Source: Promethearchaeota archaeon
GTDB lineage: Archaea; Asgardarchaeota; Lokiarchaeia; Sigyniarchaeales; SOKP01
Length of the DNA stretch: 64,000 nucleotides
Reading direction: 5' to 3'
Assembly: GCA_048937405.1 (NCBI GenBank)
Contig: JBHLNF010000001.1
Span: 976,785-1,040,784, forward strand
Every line of letters begins with the position of its first letter. Position 1 is the stretch's first letter. Positions 1,171 through 22,448 of this stretch are shown here, piece after piece. Made by a program: the position numbers and the translations under genes. Under the pieces are notes generated by a model. That model was not told the origin of the DNA. It was given only the letters and a program-made list of their open reading frames with translations, and searched no databases.

Positions 1171-2325
1171 TTAATCAAATAATCCTGTTAATCCCCTCAT
1201 TCTTGCTTTAATTGCATTTTGTGGACATAATTCAGAACAACATAAACAAGAAATACATTTTTTTCTTAAAAACATAGGATAATTTCCATCTATAAATTTT
1301 ATTGCATTAGCTGGGCAAATATCAGCGCACTGACCGCATTTCACACATCTATTCTTTATTAAATTAGGTATTTTTTTAATTATTTTATATCCTATATGTC
1401 CCGTCATGAAACTAATAACACTTGTAAAGTTATTTCCAGGAACATTAAATTTAGGAGTTTGATTTTTTGCCTGTTCAAGAGACATTCCTAAAATTTCTAT
1501 TTCTTCTAAGTTTCCAACTCCCAATTTTCGTTCTATTGCATTTTTAACATGAGGTACGATTTTTGTTTTAACCTTACCAATTTCCAACGCTACAATATCT
1601 AAAGCTAACTCATCTGTTCCTGCAAGAAGTAAATCCCATTGTTTCATCGATCCTCCTCCTGGACCAAACCTCCCTTCCATTATGTTTTGTAAATCGTAAA
1701 TAATTAATCTATTTGGTTTGTTCTTTACAACCCATGAAAAATTATCCGCAAGAACTTCTCCAAATTGTTCAGCAGTTTTTCCTAATAAATGATATTGAGC
1801 TTTTAATCCTCCCTGTATAATTCCCCAATAATTTTTTATTGCTCCTGTCATTGTTGCCTCGATATGAGATTTTAAGCGTGGTAAGTTAATTAAAATATCA
1901 CATTCTTTAACTGCCTTTGCAACACGGATTTGTTTCAAACGTAAAGCACCCTCTATCTTTTCAATTAATGGTGTATCGCTTTCGAAATCTACAAATTTTA
2001 CGCCATACTTCTCACAAATTTCAAGTATTCCAACTTTTTCTGCTACATCAGAAGCGGACTTTCCCTGTTGTCCCGGAGAATCTCCCACAGAAACATTCTC
2101 TATAGAAACACCCTTCTCATTTAAATAAGTGATTACACCCTCTAGAAAACTTGGTTGTGTACATGCGTTTTTTTTTGCTGTAAGTAAATTTGGCTTAAGA
2201 AGTATTTTCTTTGAATTTGTAAAATCGAATAGCAAATTATCTTCTATTAATTTAATAGCTCCAATTACAGCTTCAGGAATTGACTCAAAATCTTTTACAT
2301 TTATTATACTTATTTTAGTGGACAT
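1171..2325 (-). CDS. DUF362 domain protein with C-terminal 2x[4Fe-4S] ferredoxin domain
   Basis: LLKPNL, CTQP, NLPRLKSH and TGAIKN motifs; two CxxCxxCxxxCP motifs. Confidence 0.9.
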   Translation of the reverse strand: MSTKISIINVKDFESIPEAVIGAIKLIEDNLLFDFTNSKKILLKPNLLTAKKNACTQPSFLEGVITYLNEKGVSIENVSVGDSPGQQGKSASDVAEKVGILEICEKYGVKFVDFESDTPLIEKIEGALRLKQIRVAKAVKECDILINLPRLKSHIEATMTGAIKNYWGIIQGGLKAQYHLLGKTAEQFGEVLADNFSWVVKNKPNRLIIYDLQNIMEGRFGPGGGSMKQWDLLLAGTDELALDIVALEIGKVKTKIVPHVKNAIERKLGVGNLEEIEILGMSLEQAKNQTPKFNVPGNNFTSVISFMTGHIGYKIIKKIPNLIKNRCVKCGQCADICPANAIKFIDGNYPMFLRKKCISCLCCSELCPQNAIKARMRGLTGLFD

Positions 2326-2660
2326 TGTTAAACTCGATAAACTTCTTTTTCATAAATATCGTAATTGACTTTATTAACCTTGTTTAAGAGTAATATCGAA
2401 TTTTATGAAAACTTAATTATTTCATAAAAATGGTATTTTATTATGTTAGATTAGTAGAGAATAGATTTCTCCTCTTGTGATTGAAACTGTTTGAGAAATT
2501 AAGTAAATCCTAAAAGATAAAAAAGATAATAGTGAGGAGACAAGAAAGTATCTTTTTCTTTACATGAAATGCCATTCAAATAAATAGTTGACAAATCACC
2601 ATAACCTTTAAATAATAAAATCTCCATAAATAGATAAAAAATAATCCATTTGATTAAAGA

Positions 2661-3005
2661 ATGTTATTTGAATTGTCTGAATTTATATTAGGTTTTTTTA
2701 TGATACTTCTATCAAATTCCATATCTATAGGTATTCAAGTTGTAATTCTTGTCTTAGGATATCTCATTCATAAAAGGAATTCATCTACCTATGGACGCTA
2801 CTTTATGGTTTCTGCAATTTGCTCGATTTTATCACTCATTCTCACGGCACTCTTTTTGAATATCTCAGACTCTATCTTTATCAGAGCTTTATTTTTATTA
2901 ATACCAACGAGCATTGGCATTGTAGGTACAGTTTTTCTAATCTTAGCAATTTATAAAGTATACGATACTCATAGAATGGATAGAATTGAACAAAAAATTG
3001 TTTAA
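2661..3005 (+). CDS. small membrane protein (about 3 TM), unknown function
   Basis: three hydrophobic segments; followed by a T-tract. Confidence 0.65.
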   Translation: MLFELSEFILGFFMILLSNSISIGIQVVILVLGYLIHKRNSSTYGRYFMVSAICSILSLILTALFLNISDSIFIRALFLLIPTSIGIVGTVFLILAIYKVYDTHRMDRIEQKIV

Positions 3006-3288
3006 TTTTTTTTTTTAATTTTCTTCACTTCATCTATAAGCATTTTTAGTTTAGTATTTTTTTATATTGATGTTGAAATGTTATTAAATAAAATCTTACT
3101 TGTTTTTATTTGTATCTAAAAACAATTATTTTTAAGAATCTAATATATTATATTTATAAAAATAGATTAATCAATATCAAAGAAAAATAAAAAAGATCAT
3201 TCTTAAATTAAAATAAAAAAAGTCTATATTCCGATACTTAAGAAAATTAAATCATTAAAAAATTACTTTGTTCTGGAGTAGCATACTA

Positions 3289-3822
3289 ATGGCAGATGCA
3301 ATGTTTAAGATTGTGTTTTTCGGGGATGGGGGTGTTGGTAAGACCACGCTAATAAACCGATATTTAACTGGAGTTTTTAAGAGCGATTCAGTAATTACGA
3401 TAGGAGTAGATTTTCACGTTAAAAAGATTGAAATTGATGGAAAACGAGTTAGTTTACAAATATGGGATTTTGCTGGTGAAGATAGATTTAGATTTCTTAT
3501 GCCTAGTTATGTTGTAGGAGCTGCCGGAGGTATCTTTATGTTTGATATAACAAGATATACTAGTCTAAAAAATTTTAACGATTGGATTGAAATCTTTAAA
3601 CAGGGATATAAAGGAGATACACACCAATTCCCTGTGCTCATGGTAGGAAGTAAATTGGATCTAGAATTTAAAAGAGCAGTATCTAGGGAAGAAGCATTTG
3701 AATTAGCTAAAAAGAATAATCTTTTTGGATATCTCGAGTGCTCTGCTAAGAATGGTGAAAATGTTAAAGACATATTTTTAGAAATTACTAGGTTAGTAAT
3801 GCTAAAAGCAGGATTATTATAA
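3289..3822 (+). CDS. Rab-like small GTPase (Ras superfamily, eukaryotic signature protein)
   Basis: G1 GDGGVGKT, G2 TIGVDF, G3 WDFAGE, RFR, G4 SKLD, G5 CSAK; no C-terminal prenylation Cys; ATG 3289 preferred over TTG 3268. Confidence 0.95.
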   Translation: MADAMFKIVFFGDGGVGKTTLINRYLTGVFKSDSVITIGVDFHVKKIEIDGKRVSLQIWDFAGEDRFRFLMPSYVVGAAGGIFMFDITRYTSLKNFNDWIEIFKQGYKGDTHQFPVLMVGSKLDLEFKRAVSREEAFELAKKNNLFGYLECSAKNGENVKDIFLEITRLVMLKAGLL

Positions 3823-3844
3823 TAAAACCTATCGCAATAATAGA

Positions 3845-4708
3845 CTAGTTTTTAAAAATTTCACTCAAATCCTTAATTACTAAATCGGGAATTAAGTCTT
3901 TATCAAAATTCTCAGAATTAATTGATTTGAATTTTAAATCCTCAATCATTCCTTGGGAAGTAACTCCTGTTAATACTGCTATCGTTATAATCCCAGCCCG
4001 ATTACCTGCTAAAATATCAGTATTCAACTTATCACCAAAAATGCAAGCATTTTCAGCAGATATTTGAGTTTCATGTAATATCATTTTTATTCCATGGGGT
4101 TCTGGTTTTCCAAATACTCTTACTGGATTTGTATTTGTACATGTTATTAGAGCATTTACCATTGCACCTGATCCTGGTTTAAGTCCATGGGCAACAGGTA
4201 ATGTAGAATCAGTATTTGTAGCATAAAATTTAGCTTTGCCTTCTAAAATACATTTTTGAGCAATAGCTAATTTGTGATAGTTAAAATCTCTATCGAGTCC
4301 AACAATAACAAAATCAATTTCTTCAATGTTTAATGGTTCAGTGATGACTTTATGACCATATGATTGTAATTCTTCTCGTAATCCCCTTTCTCCAATAACA
4401 AAGATTTTCGCATTTTTTTTTAATTTTGAAATTTCAGCAGATGTAATCGAAGCACTAGTATAAAAATCGGAGGGTTTACTATTTATATTAAATTTATTCA
4501 ATCTCTCTACATAAGTTTGTCGAGTTGCCGTAGAATTGTTAGAATTATATACTACTTTAATAGAGTGTTCTTTAAGTTCATTAATTATTTTATCTGCAGG
4601 TGGAATTAACGTTTCTCCGCGATATATTACCCCATCTAAATCAAAAATTGTCAATTTTATATATTTCAATGCATCTATCAAACTACACATGGTAAAAGCT
4701 AAAACCAT
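3845..4708 (-). CDS. HAD-IIA family hydrolase (NagD-like)
   Basis: FDLDGV, SNNS, GKP and GDKLNTDI motifs; true start may be slightly downstream. Confidence 0.93.
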   Translation of the reverse strand: MVLAFTMCSLIDALKYIKLTIFDLDGVIYRGETLIPPADKIINELKEHSIKVVYNSNNSTATRQTYVERLNKFNINSKPSDFYTSASITSAEISKLKKNAKIFVIGERGLREELQSYGHKVITEPLNIEEIDFVIVGLDRDFNYHKLAIAQKCILEGKAKFYATNTDSTLPVAHGLKPGSGAMVNALITCTNTNPVRVFGKPEPHGIKMILHETQISAENACIFGDKLNTDILAGNRAGIITIAVLTGVTSQGMIEDLKFKSINSENFDKDLIPDLVIKDLSEIFKN

Positions 4709-19945: not shown

Positions 19946-20317
19946 TTATTTTTTTATCTCTTCAATTTTTTTAACAACATCATTTAATGCGTTTTCATTT
20001 CCAGAGCCGACATTTTCAATAGCAATTGCACTTGAAGATACATTGATTCTAATCACATTTCCAAGTTCTTTTTTAGTTGATAAATAACCATAGGGAATTC
20101 CTTTCTCTTCACAGAGAAGTGGAATGTGAAATAAAATTTCTGGAGGAGTTACATCTTCAGCCATAACAACCAATTTTGCTTGAACTCTTTCAATAGATTT
20201 AGTTACTTCATTCATACCTTTTCTAATTTTTGAATCTCTTGTTTCTGCTATTGTTGTTAAAGTATTCTTGAGCTGATTTTTTAACTTTTCAGGTATTTTA
20301 AATTTAACATATGAAAT
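19946..20317 (-). CDS. rpl7ae: ribosomal protein L7Ae / k-turn binding protein (123 aa from probable ATT start)
   Basis: frame continues upstream of ATG 20215 through (M)SYVKFKIPE...KIRKGMNEVTKSIER; AEDV.P.EI..H.P.LCEEK. Confidence 0.95.
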   Translation of the reverse strand: MSYVKFKIPEKLKNQLKNTLTTIAETRDSKIRKGMNEVTKSIERVQAKLVVMAEDVTPPEILFHIPLLCEEKGIPYGYLSTKKELGNVIRINVSSSAIAIENVGSGNENALNDVVKKIEEIKK

Positions 20318-20323
20318 CTTTAT

Positions 20324-20331
20324 TCATCTCC
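20324..20331 (-). promoter_or_regulatory. Shine-Dalgarno-like GGAGATGA of rpl7ae
   Basis: 7/8 match to GGAGGTGA, 6 nt upstream of in-frame ATT 20317; same spacing as rps28e. Confidence 0.65.
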
Positions 20332-20469
20332 TTCAAATATATTTAATTAAAGATATATTTTCATAAATCATCGATTTATTATAATGAAACTAATTGGGGA
20401 AATTAAATAAAATTTTTCATTTAGGTAAAAAACCTAAAAATTTTTTTAAAATGAATCGTTTGATAGTTT

Positions 20470-20701
20470 ATGATTATACCTATTCGCTGTTTTTCATGTG
20501 GTAAGCTCATAGCTCATGTCTATAAACCTTACCTTGAGATGATAGAAAAAGGAGAGCCTTCTGAAAAGGCTTTTAAAGAGTTAGGAATCGAGCGATTCTG
20601 TTGTAAACGCATGATCGTAAATTAGTAAGCATTTAAGCTTTCTAAGCGTATGTCATGTGGACCTAATAGATGAACTCCTTAAATTTCCGAGATTGCAATG
20701 A
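20470..20701 (+). CDS. rpo10: DNA-directed RNA polymerase subunit Rpo10 (N), split: exon 1 20470-20620, exon 2 20652-20701 (66 aa spliced)
   Basis: manual translation MIIPIRCFSCGKLIAHVYKPYLEMIEKGEPSEKAFKELGIERFCCKRMIV+SHVDLIDELLKFPRLQ; RCFxCG and CCxRM zinc ligands; missing from the ORF track. Confidence 0.95.
20621..20651 (+). other. putative 31-nt bulge-helix-bulge (tRNA-endonuclease-type) intron in rpo10 mRNA
   Basis: exon stem CGCAUGA/UCAUGUG, central helix UCGU/GCGU, 3-nt bulges AAA and AUG, intron hairpin UUAG-U-AAGC/GCUU-U-CUAA; canonical cuts restore the frame and SHVDLID. Confidence 0.85.
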
Positions 20702-20724
20702 ACATACACATCTAATAACAAAAT

Positions 20725-22010
20725 TTAAGAGAAATGATCTAAATATTTTCTTTTGAATTTTATAATCTTTCTATTAAAATTTAGATCCCAAATCTTATTT
20801 TCTACTCTCTTCCAATATGAATGTGGCAGTGTTTCAACACTAAATTCATCACATAATCTCTTAAAAAGATCAAAACTAACACCAAAAAACTCGGCTAATT
20901 TAGTTCTAGGTCCAAGATTAATCAACTCATCTATGATATCTTTTTTCCCTATTTTTTCACGAAGAACTTCATAAGTATATCTCCCTCCCTTCATTGGATA
21001 AAATACTCTTTTTCTTTCCATACTGAATTCAAATGATTCCATCATAAAGTTAAATAATATTGGACCGATTCTTAAATACCAATGGTCTTTTATATCACAG
21101 TTTTTTATCCAAACTTTTTCTCTCCCTGCAATTTTCTTATTTTTAACTTCATGTCTTAAATTAAATTCTTCCTTAATTTGCTCAAGAAATTGCTTATTTG
21201 AATTATGAATTATAGGCGCTCCTTCTTCACCATCCCCATCATAAAAGCCGAGTAATACTGACAAAGCCACTTTATACATTAAATTTCTAAAAAAGCCAAC
21301 TCTTAAACATTTTCCTTCTTTAAAATCTAAAAATCCCAATTTTATTAAATCCTTAATCATTGGAATACATCCAATTCTAATTCCATATCTTTCTGGATAT
21401 TCTCCTGATTTTTTTCTTATCCTCCTATCAATTTTATGTTCAATTTTATTTATAACATGTAATTCATTACGAAATCTCTCAATAACCTTGGAATCCCTCT
21501 TTTCTAAAAAAAGGCCAATATGTCCATCCTTAGAAATAAATCCATCAGCAAGTAACAATCCAAAATAATAACCTTTGTTTGTTGTATTAAGTAATTTAAA
21601 GTAATGTTTTTTTAAATTAGGATTATGAAGATGCCATTGCTGTTGTCGATACTCAAGGAGTTGATTTTTTTCAATATAATTATAAATTAATTCTTTACAT
21701 TTTTTAATATCTTTATTGCTCAACTTTTTTGATAAAGATTTGATAAAATCTATTAATTGCTCAACTTTTTTGATAAAGATTTGATAAAATCTATTAATTG
21801 ATCTTTTGAAAATTTAAAATAGGGATTATGCTTTGGACTATTTGAATTCTTTATCCTAAACCGAGTATCTCTTATATATCTAATATGCATACCCAAATAT
21901 TCAGAAAATTTGTCATATGAAAGTATTTTTCTATGTATTTTACTAGTTGATACTAATTCTGATATTTCTTTACGTAGATCTTCTATGAAATCTAATGTAG
22001 AATATTCCAT
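20725..22010 (-). pseudogene. two-motif LAGLIDADG homing-endonuclease-like gene (about 414 aa if intact), frameshifted by a 41-bp duplication
   Basis: YYFGLLLADG and VLLGFYDGDG motifs; ORFs 21753-22010 and 20725-21723 join at ...KKLSN/KDIKK once one repeat copy is removed. Confidence 0.8.
21715..21800. repeat. perfect 41-bp tandem duplication with ATTG microhomology
   Basis: ATTGCTCAACTTTTTTGATAAAGATTTGATAAAATCTATTA at 21715 and 21756, followed by ATTG. Confidence 0.95.
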
Positions 22011-22265
22011 AATTGTCTATGAAAATTGAACTGATATAGGATTTTTAGTTAGAAAATTAGTTATTCCAATATTTATGATAAATGAGAGTGATTGATTATT
22101 AATTTCATCTCTAAAGTGAGACAAAGAATCTTAGATATAATATAGATTTAAAATAGGTTTGAAAAATTAGATAAAAATTCTATAGATTTATTCGATGAAT
22201 TACTTAAATTTCCTCGATTACAATAATATAATTATTTATAAATTAATAGAAGTAATAAGCAAGAG

Positions 22266-22448
22266 TTATTGTTTCCCGTAATGGGCAGTCCATCTCGTTT
22301 TTCTTGCTTTTTTATTATAATCTAACATTGATTTACGGCATTTGTTAGTACAAAAGTTCAAGACTGTACCATCTCTCTTTACAAACATGAGACCTCGGCC
22401 TATAGGAATATCATAACCACAAAAACTACATTTTTTTACCTTTACCAT
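22266..22448 (-). CDS. rpl24e: 50S ribosomal protein L24e (eL24)
   Basis: CSFCG..I..GRG.MFVKRDG.V..FC..KC...RWT. Confidence 0.97.
   Translation of the reverse strand: MVKVKKCSFCGYDIPIGRGLMFVKRDGTVLNFCTNKCRKSMLDYNKKARKTRWTAHYGKQ

What the first reader, a model, noticed from the sequence alone, without database searches (positions are those of the whole stretch)
20725..22010. LAGLIDADG gene converging on the intron-containing rpo10 inside a ribosomal-protein cluster
Seen: a two-motif LAGLIDADG ORF ends 23 nt from the rpo10 stop and lies between rpl24e and rpo10/rpl7ae. Established: mobile archaeal BHB introns in rRNA often encode LAGLIDADG homing endonucleases, and free-standing endonucleases can mobilise a neighbouring intron that destroys their cut site. 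Inference: a possible two-part homing unit, where the nuclease cuts intron-less rpo10 and the mini-intron confers immunity. It could equally be an unrelated member of an expanded LAGLIDADG-like family.
Basis: partly seen in the sequence, partly recalled or inferred. Interest (0 to 1): 0.7.

Follow-up and report, generated by a model that had tools for sequence, protein, structure and literature searches.

The report
Homing endonuclease plus rpo10 mini-intron
In this Loki-type Asgard archaeon a selfish DNA-cutting enzyme gene (now freshly broken) sits beside the RNA polymerase subunit gene rpo10. It has travelled between species together with a 31-base tRNA-type intron and a replacement gene end, which suggests how such tiny introns get into archaeal protein genes.

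Summary
A double-motif LAGLIDADG gene (20725-22010, minus strand) ends 23 nt from the rpo10 stop. A perfect 41-nt tandem duplication splits it into 85-aa and 332-aa frames.

The reading as a homing unit is supported by comparison, not by biochemistry.
- rpo10 carries a 31-nt bulge-helix-bulge intron. It shows compensatory changes, and 29-, 30- and 31-nt variants all splice to the same protein.
- A displaced native rpo10 3' end lies beyond the nuclease gene.
- Among 47 species of the genus, 10 have the intron at the identical site. They are scattered on the flank-gene tree (monophyly rejected, p-AU 1e-5).
- Displaced ends match each host's nearest relatives, while the replacement ends resemble each other. 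This indicates repeated invasions.
- All 15 orthologous nuclease genes with known context lie 13-152 nt from rpo10.
- The nine beside intron-bearing rpo10 form one clade (support 98). The six beside intron-less rpo10 fall outside it.

DNA cleavage, immunity and RNA splicing remain untested.

The closest parallels are phage collaborative homing and fungal mitochondrial mobile ORFs that replace gene C-termini. I found no published archaeal example. Earlier AI notes of this scan reported similar nuclease/mini-intron pairs in DPANN archaea and elsewhere in this genome.

The parts
20470..20620 (+). rpo10 exon 1 (...CCKRMIV plus the first base of the Ser codon)
   Evidence: PF01194 RNA_pol_N, E 4e-22, profile positions 1-49 of 58. 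86-98% identical to rpo10 of 46 species of the genus.
20621..20651 (+). 31-nt bulge-helix-bulge mini-intron. Outer exon helix 20608-14 / 20653-59. 3' bulge 20650-52. Central helix 20615-18 / 20646-49 (three pairs plus a U.U). 5' bulge 20619-21. Inner hairpin 20622-30 / 20637-45.
   Evidence: Fold z-score -4.8. 92.7% of cells paired against 34-49% in slid controls, and 4 pairs changed on both sides. RNAalifold finds the outer and inner helices independently. The same site carries 29-, 30- and 31-nt versions with the exon 2 frame shifted to match.
20652..20701 (+). rpo10 exon 2, the replacement 3' end carried by the cassette ((S)HVDLIDELLKFPRLQ and stop)
   Evidence: The protein is 100% conserved among intron-bearing alleles while up to about 10 of 42 nt differ. 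For 8 of the 10 intron-bearing alleles the nearest sequences are other replacement ends, not host relatives; G025 and G072 keep host-like ends.
20725..21723 (-). LAGLIDADG endonuclease gene, distal 332-aa frame. It holds both motifs (21541-21567 and 21229-21255, catalytic Asp60 and Asp164 of this frame) and a C-terminal helical domain.
   Evidence: The family fold model (pLDDT 89.5) matches bI3 maturase, I-AniI, I-SceI, PI-SceI, I-Tsp061I and I-DmoI. Pfam LAGLIDADG_3 hits 24 of 39 family members.
21715..21796 (.). Perfect 41-nt tandem duplication (21715-21755 and 21756-21796) that frameshifts the endonuclease gene
   Evidence: The junction is seen in a unitig of run X3, and depth is about doubled over the repeat in X1, X4 and X5.
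21753..22010 (-). LAGLIDADG endonuclease gene, proximal 85-aa frame (N-terminal helical domain)
   Evidence: 73% identical to residues 1-85 of the intact 414-aa homologue P0003.
22182..22226 (+). Displaced native rpo10 3' end (IDLFDELLKFPRLQ and stop), now untranslated
   Evidence: Direct repeat D2, 81% identical to 20664-20699. Differences from exon 2 are mostly synonymous (sequences). It differs by 2 nt from intron-less alleles of the genus. In co-occurring relatives exon 1 joins directly to this stretch (joint 20615 to 22185).

Best explanation
This is a decaying copy of a mobile cassette that invades rpo10. The cassette has three parts: a 31-nt bulge-helix-bulge intron, a substitute copy of the last 16 codons of rpo10, and a free-standing double-motif LAGLIDADG homing endonuclease gene.

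Inferred mechanism: the endonuclease cuts intron-less rpo10 DNA at or next to the ...ATGATYGTAA|GTCATGTG... junction. The break is repaired from a cassette-bearing allele. Exon 1 serves as the left homology arm. The right arm is either the displaced old 3' end, which copies the whole cassette, or exon 2 itself, which copies the intron only. In the product the intron interrupts the DNA target, so the allele should no longer be cut. The mRNA is healed by the tRNA-splicing endonuclease and RtcB ligase, and translation stops at the substitute exon's stop codon. The host's own 3' end is pushed downstream and decays.

Once fixed, the nuclease gene is dispensable and degenerates. In this genome that happened through a recent 41-nt duplication.

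Shown here: the anatomy, the fold, the intron structure with covariation, repeated independent insertions at one site, and co-inheritance of the intron with one nuclease clade. Inferred: the cleavage site, the immunity and the splicing.
For: 1. Nuclease identity. Both LAGLIDADG motifs keep their acidic residues. A confident model matches only LAGLIDADG enzymes at the top of the list. dN/dS is 0.15-0.23 among orthologues.

2. Intron. It has BHB geometry. Splicing restores ...RMIVSHVDL... exactly as in intron-less alleles. Compensatory changes are present. Variants of 29, 30 and 31 nt each have the exon 2 frame shifted to match. The genome has a single rpo10, two EndA-domain genes and RtcB.

3. 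Mobility. Ten of 47 species carry the intron at the identical site. This needs 10 changes on the flank-protein tree, of which at least 8 are forced by supported branches. Monophyly of the intron-bearing genomes is rejected (delta lnL 717, p-AU 1.3e-5).

4. Repeated invasion. Displaced 3' ends match the host's sister species: G016 differs by 1 nt from G014, and G018 and G024 by 2 nt from G076. Replacement ends match each other across distant hosts: G001 and G016 differ by 2 nt, G008 and G069 by 1 nt. G025 and G072 have the intron with a host-like exon 2 and no remnant, which fits intron-only conversion. The signature in exon 1 reaches only about 13 nt upstream of the intron.

5. Linkage to the nuclease. 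All 15 orthologues with known context lie 13-152 nt from rpo10, on either side of it. The nine beside intron-bearing rpo10 form one clade (SH-aLRT 98) and intron subtypes follow its subclades. G008 and G069 share the closest nuclease (76%) and near-identical introns, although their hosts are no closer than any other pair.

6. Natural setting. Intron-less relatives and an intron-bearing, nuclease-less allele co-occur in the same sediments.
Against: - There is no biochemical or RNA evidence. No RNA run holds the locus.
- The nuclease gene here is frameshifted, so this copy is probably inactive.
- Four of the 10 intron-bearing species (G016, G018, G030, G072) have no nuclease gene and no detectable remnant of one.
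- A sister group of the nuclease (G012 and five environmental contigs) sits in the same position beside intron-less rpo10. The nuclease therefore does not need the intron, and its target could lie elsewhere in the region.
- The central helix of the motif has a U.U in 9 of 10 sequences instead of a fourth pair.
- The phylogenetically independent-pairs test of intron against nuclease is underpowered: 4-5 pairs agree, none disagree, p 0.06-0.25.
- The exon comparisons rest on only 42 nt.
Confidence: 0.7

Rival explanations
1. The LAGLIDADG gene is a free-standing homing endonuclease gene, but its target is its own insertion point or another sequence near the rpo10 3' end. The mini-intron is then a separate element that hitch-hikes by linkage and gives no immunity.
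For: The sister clade of the nuclease sits convergent on intron-less rpo10 (G012, L101-L104, L108, L109). One of these (L109) has a displaced 3' end without any intron. Four intron-bearing species lack the nuclease gene.
Against: Within the intron-associated clade the gene lies either downstream convergent or upstream in tandem (G024, L106, probably G025). That does not fit a target at its own insertion point. In G030 the displaced end starts exactly at the intron insertion site. Intron-only transfers have very short conversion tracts centred on the intron. Nine of nine clade-A copies with known context have the intron.
Confidence: 0.15
2. The protein is a domesticated LAGLIDADG protein, such as a DNA-binding regulator or an RNA-binding helper for rpo10 expression. 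It is kept next to rpo10 for function and no longer acts as a nuclease.
For: Purifying selection (dN/dS about 0.2). Extra N- and C-terminal helical domains in the model. The best structural match is a maturase, bI3. Long-term residence at one locus.
Against: Catalytic Asp residues are conserved in both motifs. The gene is absent from 40 of 47 species and is broken or fragmentary in G000, G001 and G025. Its distribution is horizontal rather than vertical. BHB splicing is not known to need a maturase (established knowledge).
Confidence: 0.07
3. The intron and cassette are ancestral to the genus and were inherited vertically, with many independent precise losses.
For: Short direct repeats (CGTAA) at both intron ends, and the exon 2 duplication, could allow precise deletion.
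Against: It needs at least 8 losses. Displaced ends are 1-2 nt from the functional ends of sister species, which is impossible for a pseudogene dating from the ancestor of the genus. Replacement ends and introns group by nuclease clade, not by host.
Confidence: 0.04
4. Chance neighbour: an unrelated member of the expanded LAGLIDADG-like family that happens to lie next to rpo10.
For: The genome has at least five paralogous loci.
Against: The paralogues are only 28-40% identical. All 15 orthologues with known context lie beside rpo10.
Confidence: 0.02

Closest known systems
Collaborative (trans) homing in phages: free-standing F-CphI beside the ORF-less psbA group I intron of cyanophage S-PM2, and T4 mobE with the I-TevIII intron (PMC6083498, PMC2790892)
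   Same: A free-standing endonuclease gene lies next to a gene with an ORF-less intron. The proposed logic is the same: the enzyme cuts the intron-less allele at the intron insertion site, the intron protects, and both are copied by break repair.
   Different: There the intron is a self-splicing group I ribozyme, the nucleases belong to the Endo VII-like and HNH families, and the hosts are phages. Here the intron is a 29-31-nt protein-spliced BHB intron in a cellular archaeal chromosome. The nuclease is a LAGLIDADG enzyme, and the cassette also carries a substitute 3' exon.
Mobile endonuclease ORFs (mORFs) that replace gene C-termini in fungal mitochondria: Allomyces atp6, and Glomus atp6, atp9, cox2 and nad3 (PMC3630166)
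   Same: A LAGLIDADG ORF is inserted in a gene together with a foreign copy of the C-terminal coding part. The native C-terminus is displaced downstream. The native copy groups with close relatives and the inserted copy does not.
   Different: In the fungal cases the inserted C-terminus is fused in phase with the gene. Here it is separated from exon 1 by a mini-intron that must be spliced out. In most copies the nuclease gene is on the opposite strand, and in some it lies upstream of the gene.
BHB intron in cbf5 pre-mRNA of Crenarchaeota (Yokobori et al. 2009, PMC2738675)
   Same: A short (16-44 nt) BHB intron in an archaeal protein-coding gene, too small to encode a nuclease, with lineage-specific presence and absence.
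   Different: The cbf5 intron was read as one gain and a few losses with no sign of transfer, and no nuclease partner was found. Here there are repeated horizontal gains tied to a neighbouring nuclease gene. The host is an Asgard archaeon and the gene an RNA polymerase subunit.
Intron-encoded archaeal LAGLIDADG endonucleases of rRNA BHB introns (I-DmoI, I-Tsp061I; structural matches)
   Same: Monomeric double-motif LAGLIDADG fold, and association with BHB introns in archaea.
   Different: Those genes lie inside long introns of rRNA genes. This one lies outside a 31-nt intron of a protein gene and has extra N- and C-terminal helical domains. Sequence identity in the structural alignments is only 10-17%.

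Membership tests
LAGLIDADG homing endonucleases (monomeric, double-motif) | Two LAGLIDADG helices, each ending in a catalytic acidic residue | tested here: met
   GLLLADG and LLGFYDGDG are present. The Asp-Gly of both motifs is invariant or nearly so in 39 relatives.
LAGLIDADG homing endonucleases (monomeric, double-motif) | Alpha-beta-beta-alpha-beta-beta-alpha core fold repeated twice | tested here: met
   AlphaFold2 model of the 79%-identical intact homologue P0003: pLDDT 89.5. All 50 Foldseek PDB hits listed are LAGLIDADG enzymes or maturases, the best at E 1.4e-5.
LAGLIDADG homing endonucleases (monomeric, double-motif) | Match to a curated family profile above its cut-off | tested here: inconclusive
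   The window's 332-aa frame gives no Pfam hit at E below 0.01. P0003 scores 17.9 bits against a cut-off of 22.5. PF14528 is hit at E up to 0.01 by 24 of 39 family members, best E 8e-11. A profile search of PDB sequences found nothing.
LAGLIDADG homing endonucleases (monomeric, double-motif) | Intact reading frame | tested here: not met
   This copy is frameshifted by a 41-nt duplication. Intact orthologues exist: P0001, P0002, P0003 and P0005.
LAGLIDADG homing endonucleases (monomeric, double-motif) | Site-specific double-strand cleavage of a long DNA target | not testable with these tools
   Needs an enzyme assay.
Archaeal bulge-helix-bulge (BHB) intron | Helix, 3-nt bulge, 4-bp helix, 3-nt bulge, helix, with splice sites in the bulges | tested here: met
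   Geometry as listed under parts. The central helix is 3 pairs plus a U.U in 9 of 10 sequences, so this is a relaxed form.
Archaeal bulge-helix-bulge (BHB) intron | Structure kept by compensatory changes | tested here: met
   Four pairs changed on both sides. 92.7% of cells paired against 34-49% in slid controls. The 29-nt variant has a different inner stem with the same geometry.
Archaeal bulge-helix-bulge (BHB) intron | Removal at the bulges restores the conserved reading frame | tested here: met
   The spliced product reads ...RMIVSHVDLIDELL..., as in intron-less alleles. With introns of 29, 30 and 31 nt the exon 2 frame shifts accordingly.
Archaeal bulge-helix-bulge (BHB) intron | Splicing endonuclease and RtcB ligase encoded by the genome | tested here: met
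   Two genes with the PF01974 domain and one RtcB gene, all above the family cut-offs.
Archaeal bulge-helix-bulge (BHB) intron | Spliced RNA observed | not testable with these tools
   No RNA run holds the locus.
Collaborative homing (free-standing nuclease plus ORF-less intron) | Nuclease gene outside but adjacent to an ORF-less intron, and co-distributed with it | tested here: met
   Nine of nine clade-A nuclease genes with known context lie beside intron-bearing rpo10. No nuclease gene lies beside the intron-less rpo10 of 36 of the 37 intron-less species; the exception, G012, carries a clade-B gene.
Collaborative homing (free-standing nuclease plus ORF-less intron) | Horizontal spread into intron-less alleles at one site | tested here: met
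Collaborative homing (free-standing nuclease plus ORF-less intron) | The nuclease cuts the intron-less allele at the intron insertion site, and the intron-bearing allele is immune | not testable with these tools
   Inference only.
mORF-type C-terminal replacement (fungal mitochondria) | Inserted foreign C-terminus plus endonuclease ORF, with the native C-terminus displaced and grouping with close relatives | tested here: met
mORF-type C-terminal replacement (fungal mitochondria) | Inserted C-terminus fused in phase with the upstream gene | tested here: not met
   It is separated by a 31-nt insert with stop codons and lies in another frame. One clade-B contig, L109, does show the in-phase form.

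The most novel reading that the evidence does not exclude
Free-standing LAGLIDADG endonucleases may be a general engine of intron gain in archaeal protein genes, and perhaps tRNA genes. A mini-intron that can be cut out by the tRNA-splicing enzyme would be selected because it breaks the nuclease's DNA target. Introns would then be born and spread as immunity devices at double-strand-break sites. In Asgard archaea this would be a working route of intron gain into core information-processing genes that needs no reverse transcription.
Probability: 0.3. Interest if true: 0.9.

Novelty: new variant of a known kind. Interest (0 to 1): 0.78.

Why it matters
How BHB introns arrive at new sites is unknown. 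[quoted passage not shown] In the papers I could search, splicing of a BHB intron in an archaeal protein gene has been confirmed only for cbf5, and that paper noted the intron is too short to encode a nuclease (PMC2738675).

This locus offers a concrete, testable route: a nuclease gene outside the intron, a mini-intron that splits the presumed target, and a carried replacement exon. It comes with at least eight independent natural invasions to compare and with intact enzymes available for assay.

There is also a practical consequence. Gene callers miss the essential rpo10 gene in these genomes; for example, no rpo10 was called on the LCGC14 contig.

Tried and rejected
- RNA evidence: no RNA holder is listed for the locus, so splicing could not be checked.
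- Pfam on the window's own 332-aa frame gave nothing, and the 85-aa frame gave only a sub-threshold RteC hit that I take as chance.
- A profile search of PDB sequences with the family alignment gave only chance-level hits. The fold search was needed.
- A search for decayed nuclease remnants in intron-bearing, nuclease-less loci (G016, G018, G030, G072, G025) found nothing below E 0.1.
- My first rpo10 DNA tree used a wrong exon boundary (3 nt off) and is not used.
- My first idea was a single ancestral insertion inherited with its remnant. I dropped it when the remnants proved to match each host's own relatives.
- Programmed frameshifting or read-through was rejected. The insert contains stops in the exon 1 frame, and 29-, 30- and 31-nt versions would each need a different shift.
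- A weak similarity between the sequence upstream of the displaced end and the intron 5' end (AAATTAG) was not pursued. It is too short in AT-rich DNA.
- I did not resolve whether the short spacers of nuclease-less cassettes are homologous to the stretch upstream of the window's displaced end.

Full report
**What is in the window**

On the minus strand lie two ORFs: 20725-21723 (332 aa, TTG start) and 21753-22010 (85 aa). They converge on rpo10, whose stop codon is at 20699-20701, 23 nt from the nuclease stop. Flanking genes are rps28e and rpl7ae on one side and rpl24e and rps6e on the other.

The two ORFs are one gene. A perfect 41-nt tandem duplication (21715-21755 and 21756-21796) shifts the frame, and without one copy the frame runs for 414 aa. 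The intact 414-aa homologue P0003 aligns collinearly to both parts, at 73% and 79% identity.

The duplication junction is present in a unitig of an independent metagenome study (X3, 21715-21785, no mismatch). Depth roughly doubles over the repeat in three other runs. The break is therefore real and, since the copies are identical, recent.

**Is it a LAGLIDADG endonuclease?**

- Pfam gives no hit for the window's own frame.
- Among 39 relatives, PF14528 (LAGLIDADG_3) is hit by 24.
- The Asp-Gly of both motifs (GLLLADG, LLGFYDGDG) is invariant or nearly so.
- An AlphaFold2 model of P0003 built on this alignment is confident (pLDDT 89.5, pTM 0.74).
- The Foldseek hits listed in the PDB are all LAGLIDADG enzymes or maturases: bI3, I-AniI, I-SceI, PI-SceI, the archaeal intron enzyme I-Tsp061I and I-DmoI.
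- The core is flanked by N- and C-terminal helical domains.
- dN/dS among orthologues is 0.15-0.23, so the protein has been under selection.

**The rpo10 intron**

Exon 1 matches RNA_pol_N positions 1-49 of 58 and then meets AAT TAG. The conserved (S)HVDLIDELL... resumes 31 nt later in another frame.

The stretch folds well below shuffled controls (z -4.8) into a bulge-helix-bulge motif:
- a 7-bp exon-exon helix (CGCAUGA / UCAUGUG);
- a 3-nt bulge on the 3' strand;
- a central helix of three pairs plus a U.U;
- a 3-nt bulge on the 5' strand;
- an inner hairpin.

Cutting after the second base of each bulge removes 20621-20651 and yields ...CCKRMIVSHVDLIDELLKFPRLQ, exactly as in intron-less relatives.

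Across ten species 92.7% of cells pair, against 34-49% when the partners are slid, and four pairs change on both sides. RNAalifold recovers the outer and inner helices independently. G030 has a 30-nt version, and two environmental contigs have a 29-nt version with a different inner stem. In each case the frame of exon 2 is shifted to match. That excludes frameshifting or read-through.

The genome has one rpo10, two EndA-domain genes and RtcB. No RNA run was available.

**A displaced 3' end**

Beyond the nuclease gene, at 22182-22226, lies a second copy of the last codons of rpo10 (IDLFDELLKFPRLQ and stop). It is 81% identical to exon 2 and differs from it mostly at synonymous sites (sequences).

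In the same sediments, contigs of relatives join exon 1 directly to this stretch (joint 20615 to 22185 with 13 bases between). This is therefore the native gene end, pushed aside by an insertion made of intron, substitute exon and nuclease gene.

**Distribution in the genus**

The genus has 54 species representatives, labelled Promethearchaeota by their sources. Of these, 48 have rpo10, and I fetched 47 loci.

- Ten carry the intron at the identical site: G000, G001, G008, G016, G018, G024, G025, G030, G069 and G072.
- On a tree of flanking proteins (677 columns) the ten need ten changes, at least eight of them forced by well-supported branches.
- A tree holding the ten together is rejected (delta lnL 717, p-AU 1.3e-5).

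The intron-bearing alleles share fixed CGC-ATG-AT... codons that form the exon helix. Otherwise exon 1 follows the host, so the foreign tract starts only about 13 nt upstream of the intron.

The displaced ends match each host's own relatives: G016 differs by 1 nt from its sister G014, and G018 and G024 by 2 nt from their sister G076. The substitute exons resemble each other across distant hosts: G001 and G016 differ by 2 nt, G008 and G069 by 1 nt. G025 and G072 have the intron with a host-like exon 2 and no displaced end.

This is what repeated break repair at one site would give, with either the old gene end or exon 2 acting as the right-hand homology arm. It is not what vertical descent with losses would give.

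**Link to the nuclease**

Orthologues above 50% identity occur only beside rpo10.
- Convergent and downstream: G000, G001 (broken), G008, G069 and G012.
- Upstream in tandem: G024, and probably G025, where only a fragment survives at a contig end.

Nine environmental orthologues were traced to contigs, and all lie 13-152 nt from rpo10. The LCGC14 contig LAZR01002210 has the window's architecture with an intact 433-aa gene.

On the nuclease tree the nine copies beside intron-bearing rpo10 form one clade (support 98). The six beside intron-less rpo10 lie outside it. Intron subtypes follow the subclades. G008 and G069 share the closest nuclease (76%) and near-identical introns, although their hosts are as distant as any pair.

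A test on phylogenetically independent pairs goes the expected way (4-5 pairs agree, none disagree) but is underpowered (p 0.06-0.25).

**What limits the claim**

- Four intron-bearing species have no nuclease gene and no trace of one. The homing cycle predicts such loss, but this is an interpretation.
- The sister clade of the nuclease lives at the same spot without an intron. One such contig (L109) shows a displaced 3' end with the substitute end fused in phase. That is the fungal mitochondrial mORF pattern (PMC3630166).
- The nuclease therefore does not strictly need the intron, and its exact target is unknown.
- The variable position of clade-A genes on either side of rpo10, and the start of the G030 remnant exactly at the intron site, favour a target at the exon junction. 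Only an enzyme assay can settle it.

**Comparison and novelty**

The logic matches collaborative homing of free-standing nucleases with ORF-less group I introns in phages (PMC6083498, PMC2790892). The anatomy matches mORF C-terminal replacement. The intron type matches cbf5 (PMC2738675).

Searches for Asgard plus LAGLIDADG plus intron, and for Rpo10 plus intron, found no report of this arrangement.

Earlier AI notes of this scan describe similar pairs in DPANN archaea (kae1, rnhB, carB, psmA) and in this genome (pfk, infB). I confirmed only that a paralogous LAGLIDADG gene lies directly upstream of pfk, whose called frame lacks the first 24 positions of the PFK profile.

I rate it a new variant of a known kind.

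Noticed in passing
L003 (G000:C25:146658-150371), ORFs 1144-2220 and 2425-3498: A paralogous LAGLIDADG gene (PF14528, E 8e-9) lies about 200 nt upstream of pfk.
   Followed up: partly
L004 (G000:C20:1363-5238), ORF 1414-2622 minus strand: Another paralogous LAGLIDADG_3 gene lies between a DUF1848 gene and an IF-2B-family gene whose Pfam match starts only at residue 44. I did not check it for a mini-intron or a duplicated gene end.
   Followed up: no
window 20215-20335, minus strand: The conserved N-terminus of rpl7ae (SYVKFKIPEK...) lies upstream of the first ATG, GTG or TTG. The only in-frame codons after the upstream TGA are ATA, AAG and ATT, so the gene either uses a non-canonical start or has been misread.
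   Followed up: no
Relatives: G001, G008, G018, G024 (L037-L040), between rpl7ae and rpo10: The rpl7ae-rpo10 spacer is about 255 nt in most species. In several intron-bearing genomes it holds 2.2-5.2 kb of extra DNA, for example a TPR protein and a 165-aa ORF in G024. The locus looks like an insertion hot spot on both sides of rpo10.
   Followed up: partly
Relatives G012, G072, G077 (L079, L086, L096): The rpo10 segment is inverted relative to the ribosomal-protein genes, so rpl24e and rpo10 run in the same direction. This would fit rearrangement after breaks at this locus.
   Followed up: no
window 20300-22400 in metagenome runs X1 and X5: The same sediments hold at least two relatives with empty sites (joints 20615 to 22185 and 20607 to 22266). 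They also hold an allele like that of G016, intron-bearing but without the nuclease gene (variants at 20616-20662 and joint 20692 to 22266). Donor and recipient alleles therefore co-occur.
   Followed up: partly
L100 (LCGC14 contig LAZR01002210), 435-1643: A DDE transposase gene lies just upstream of rps6e in the Loki's Castle contig that has the same cassette. rpo10 was not called by the annotators of that record.
   Followed up: no
L046 (G012:C75), ORF 1489-3969 minus strand: The clade-B nuclease of G012 is fused to an N-terminal extension of about 400 aa with no recognised domain, giving 826 aa in total. Several environmental relatives are 650-690 aa long.
   Followed up: no
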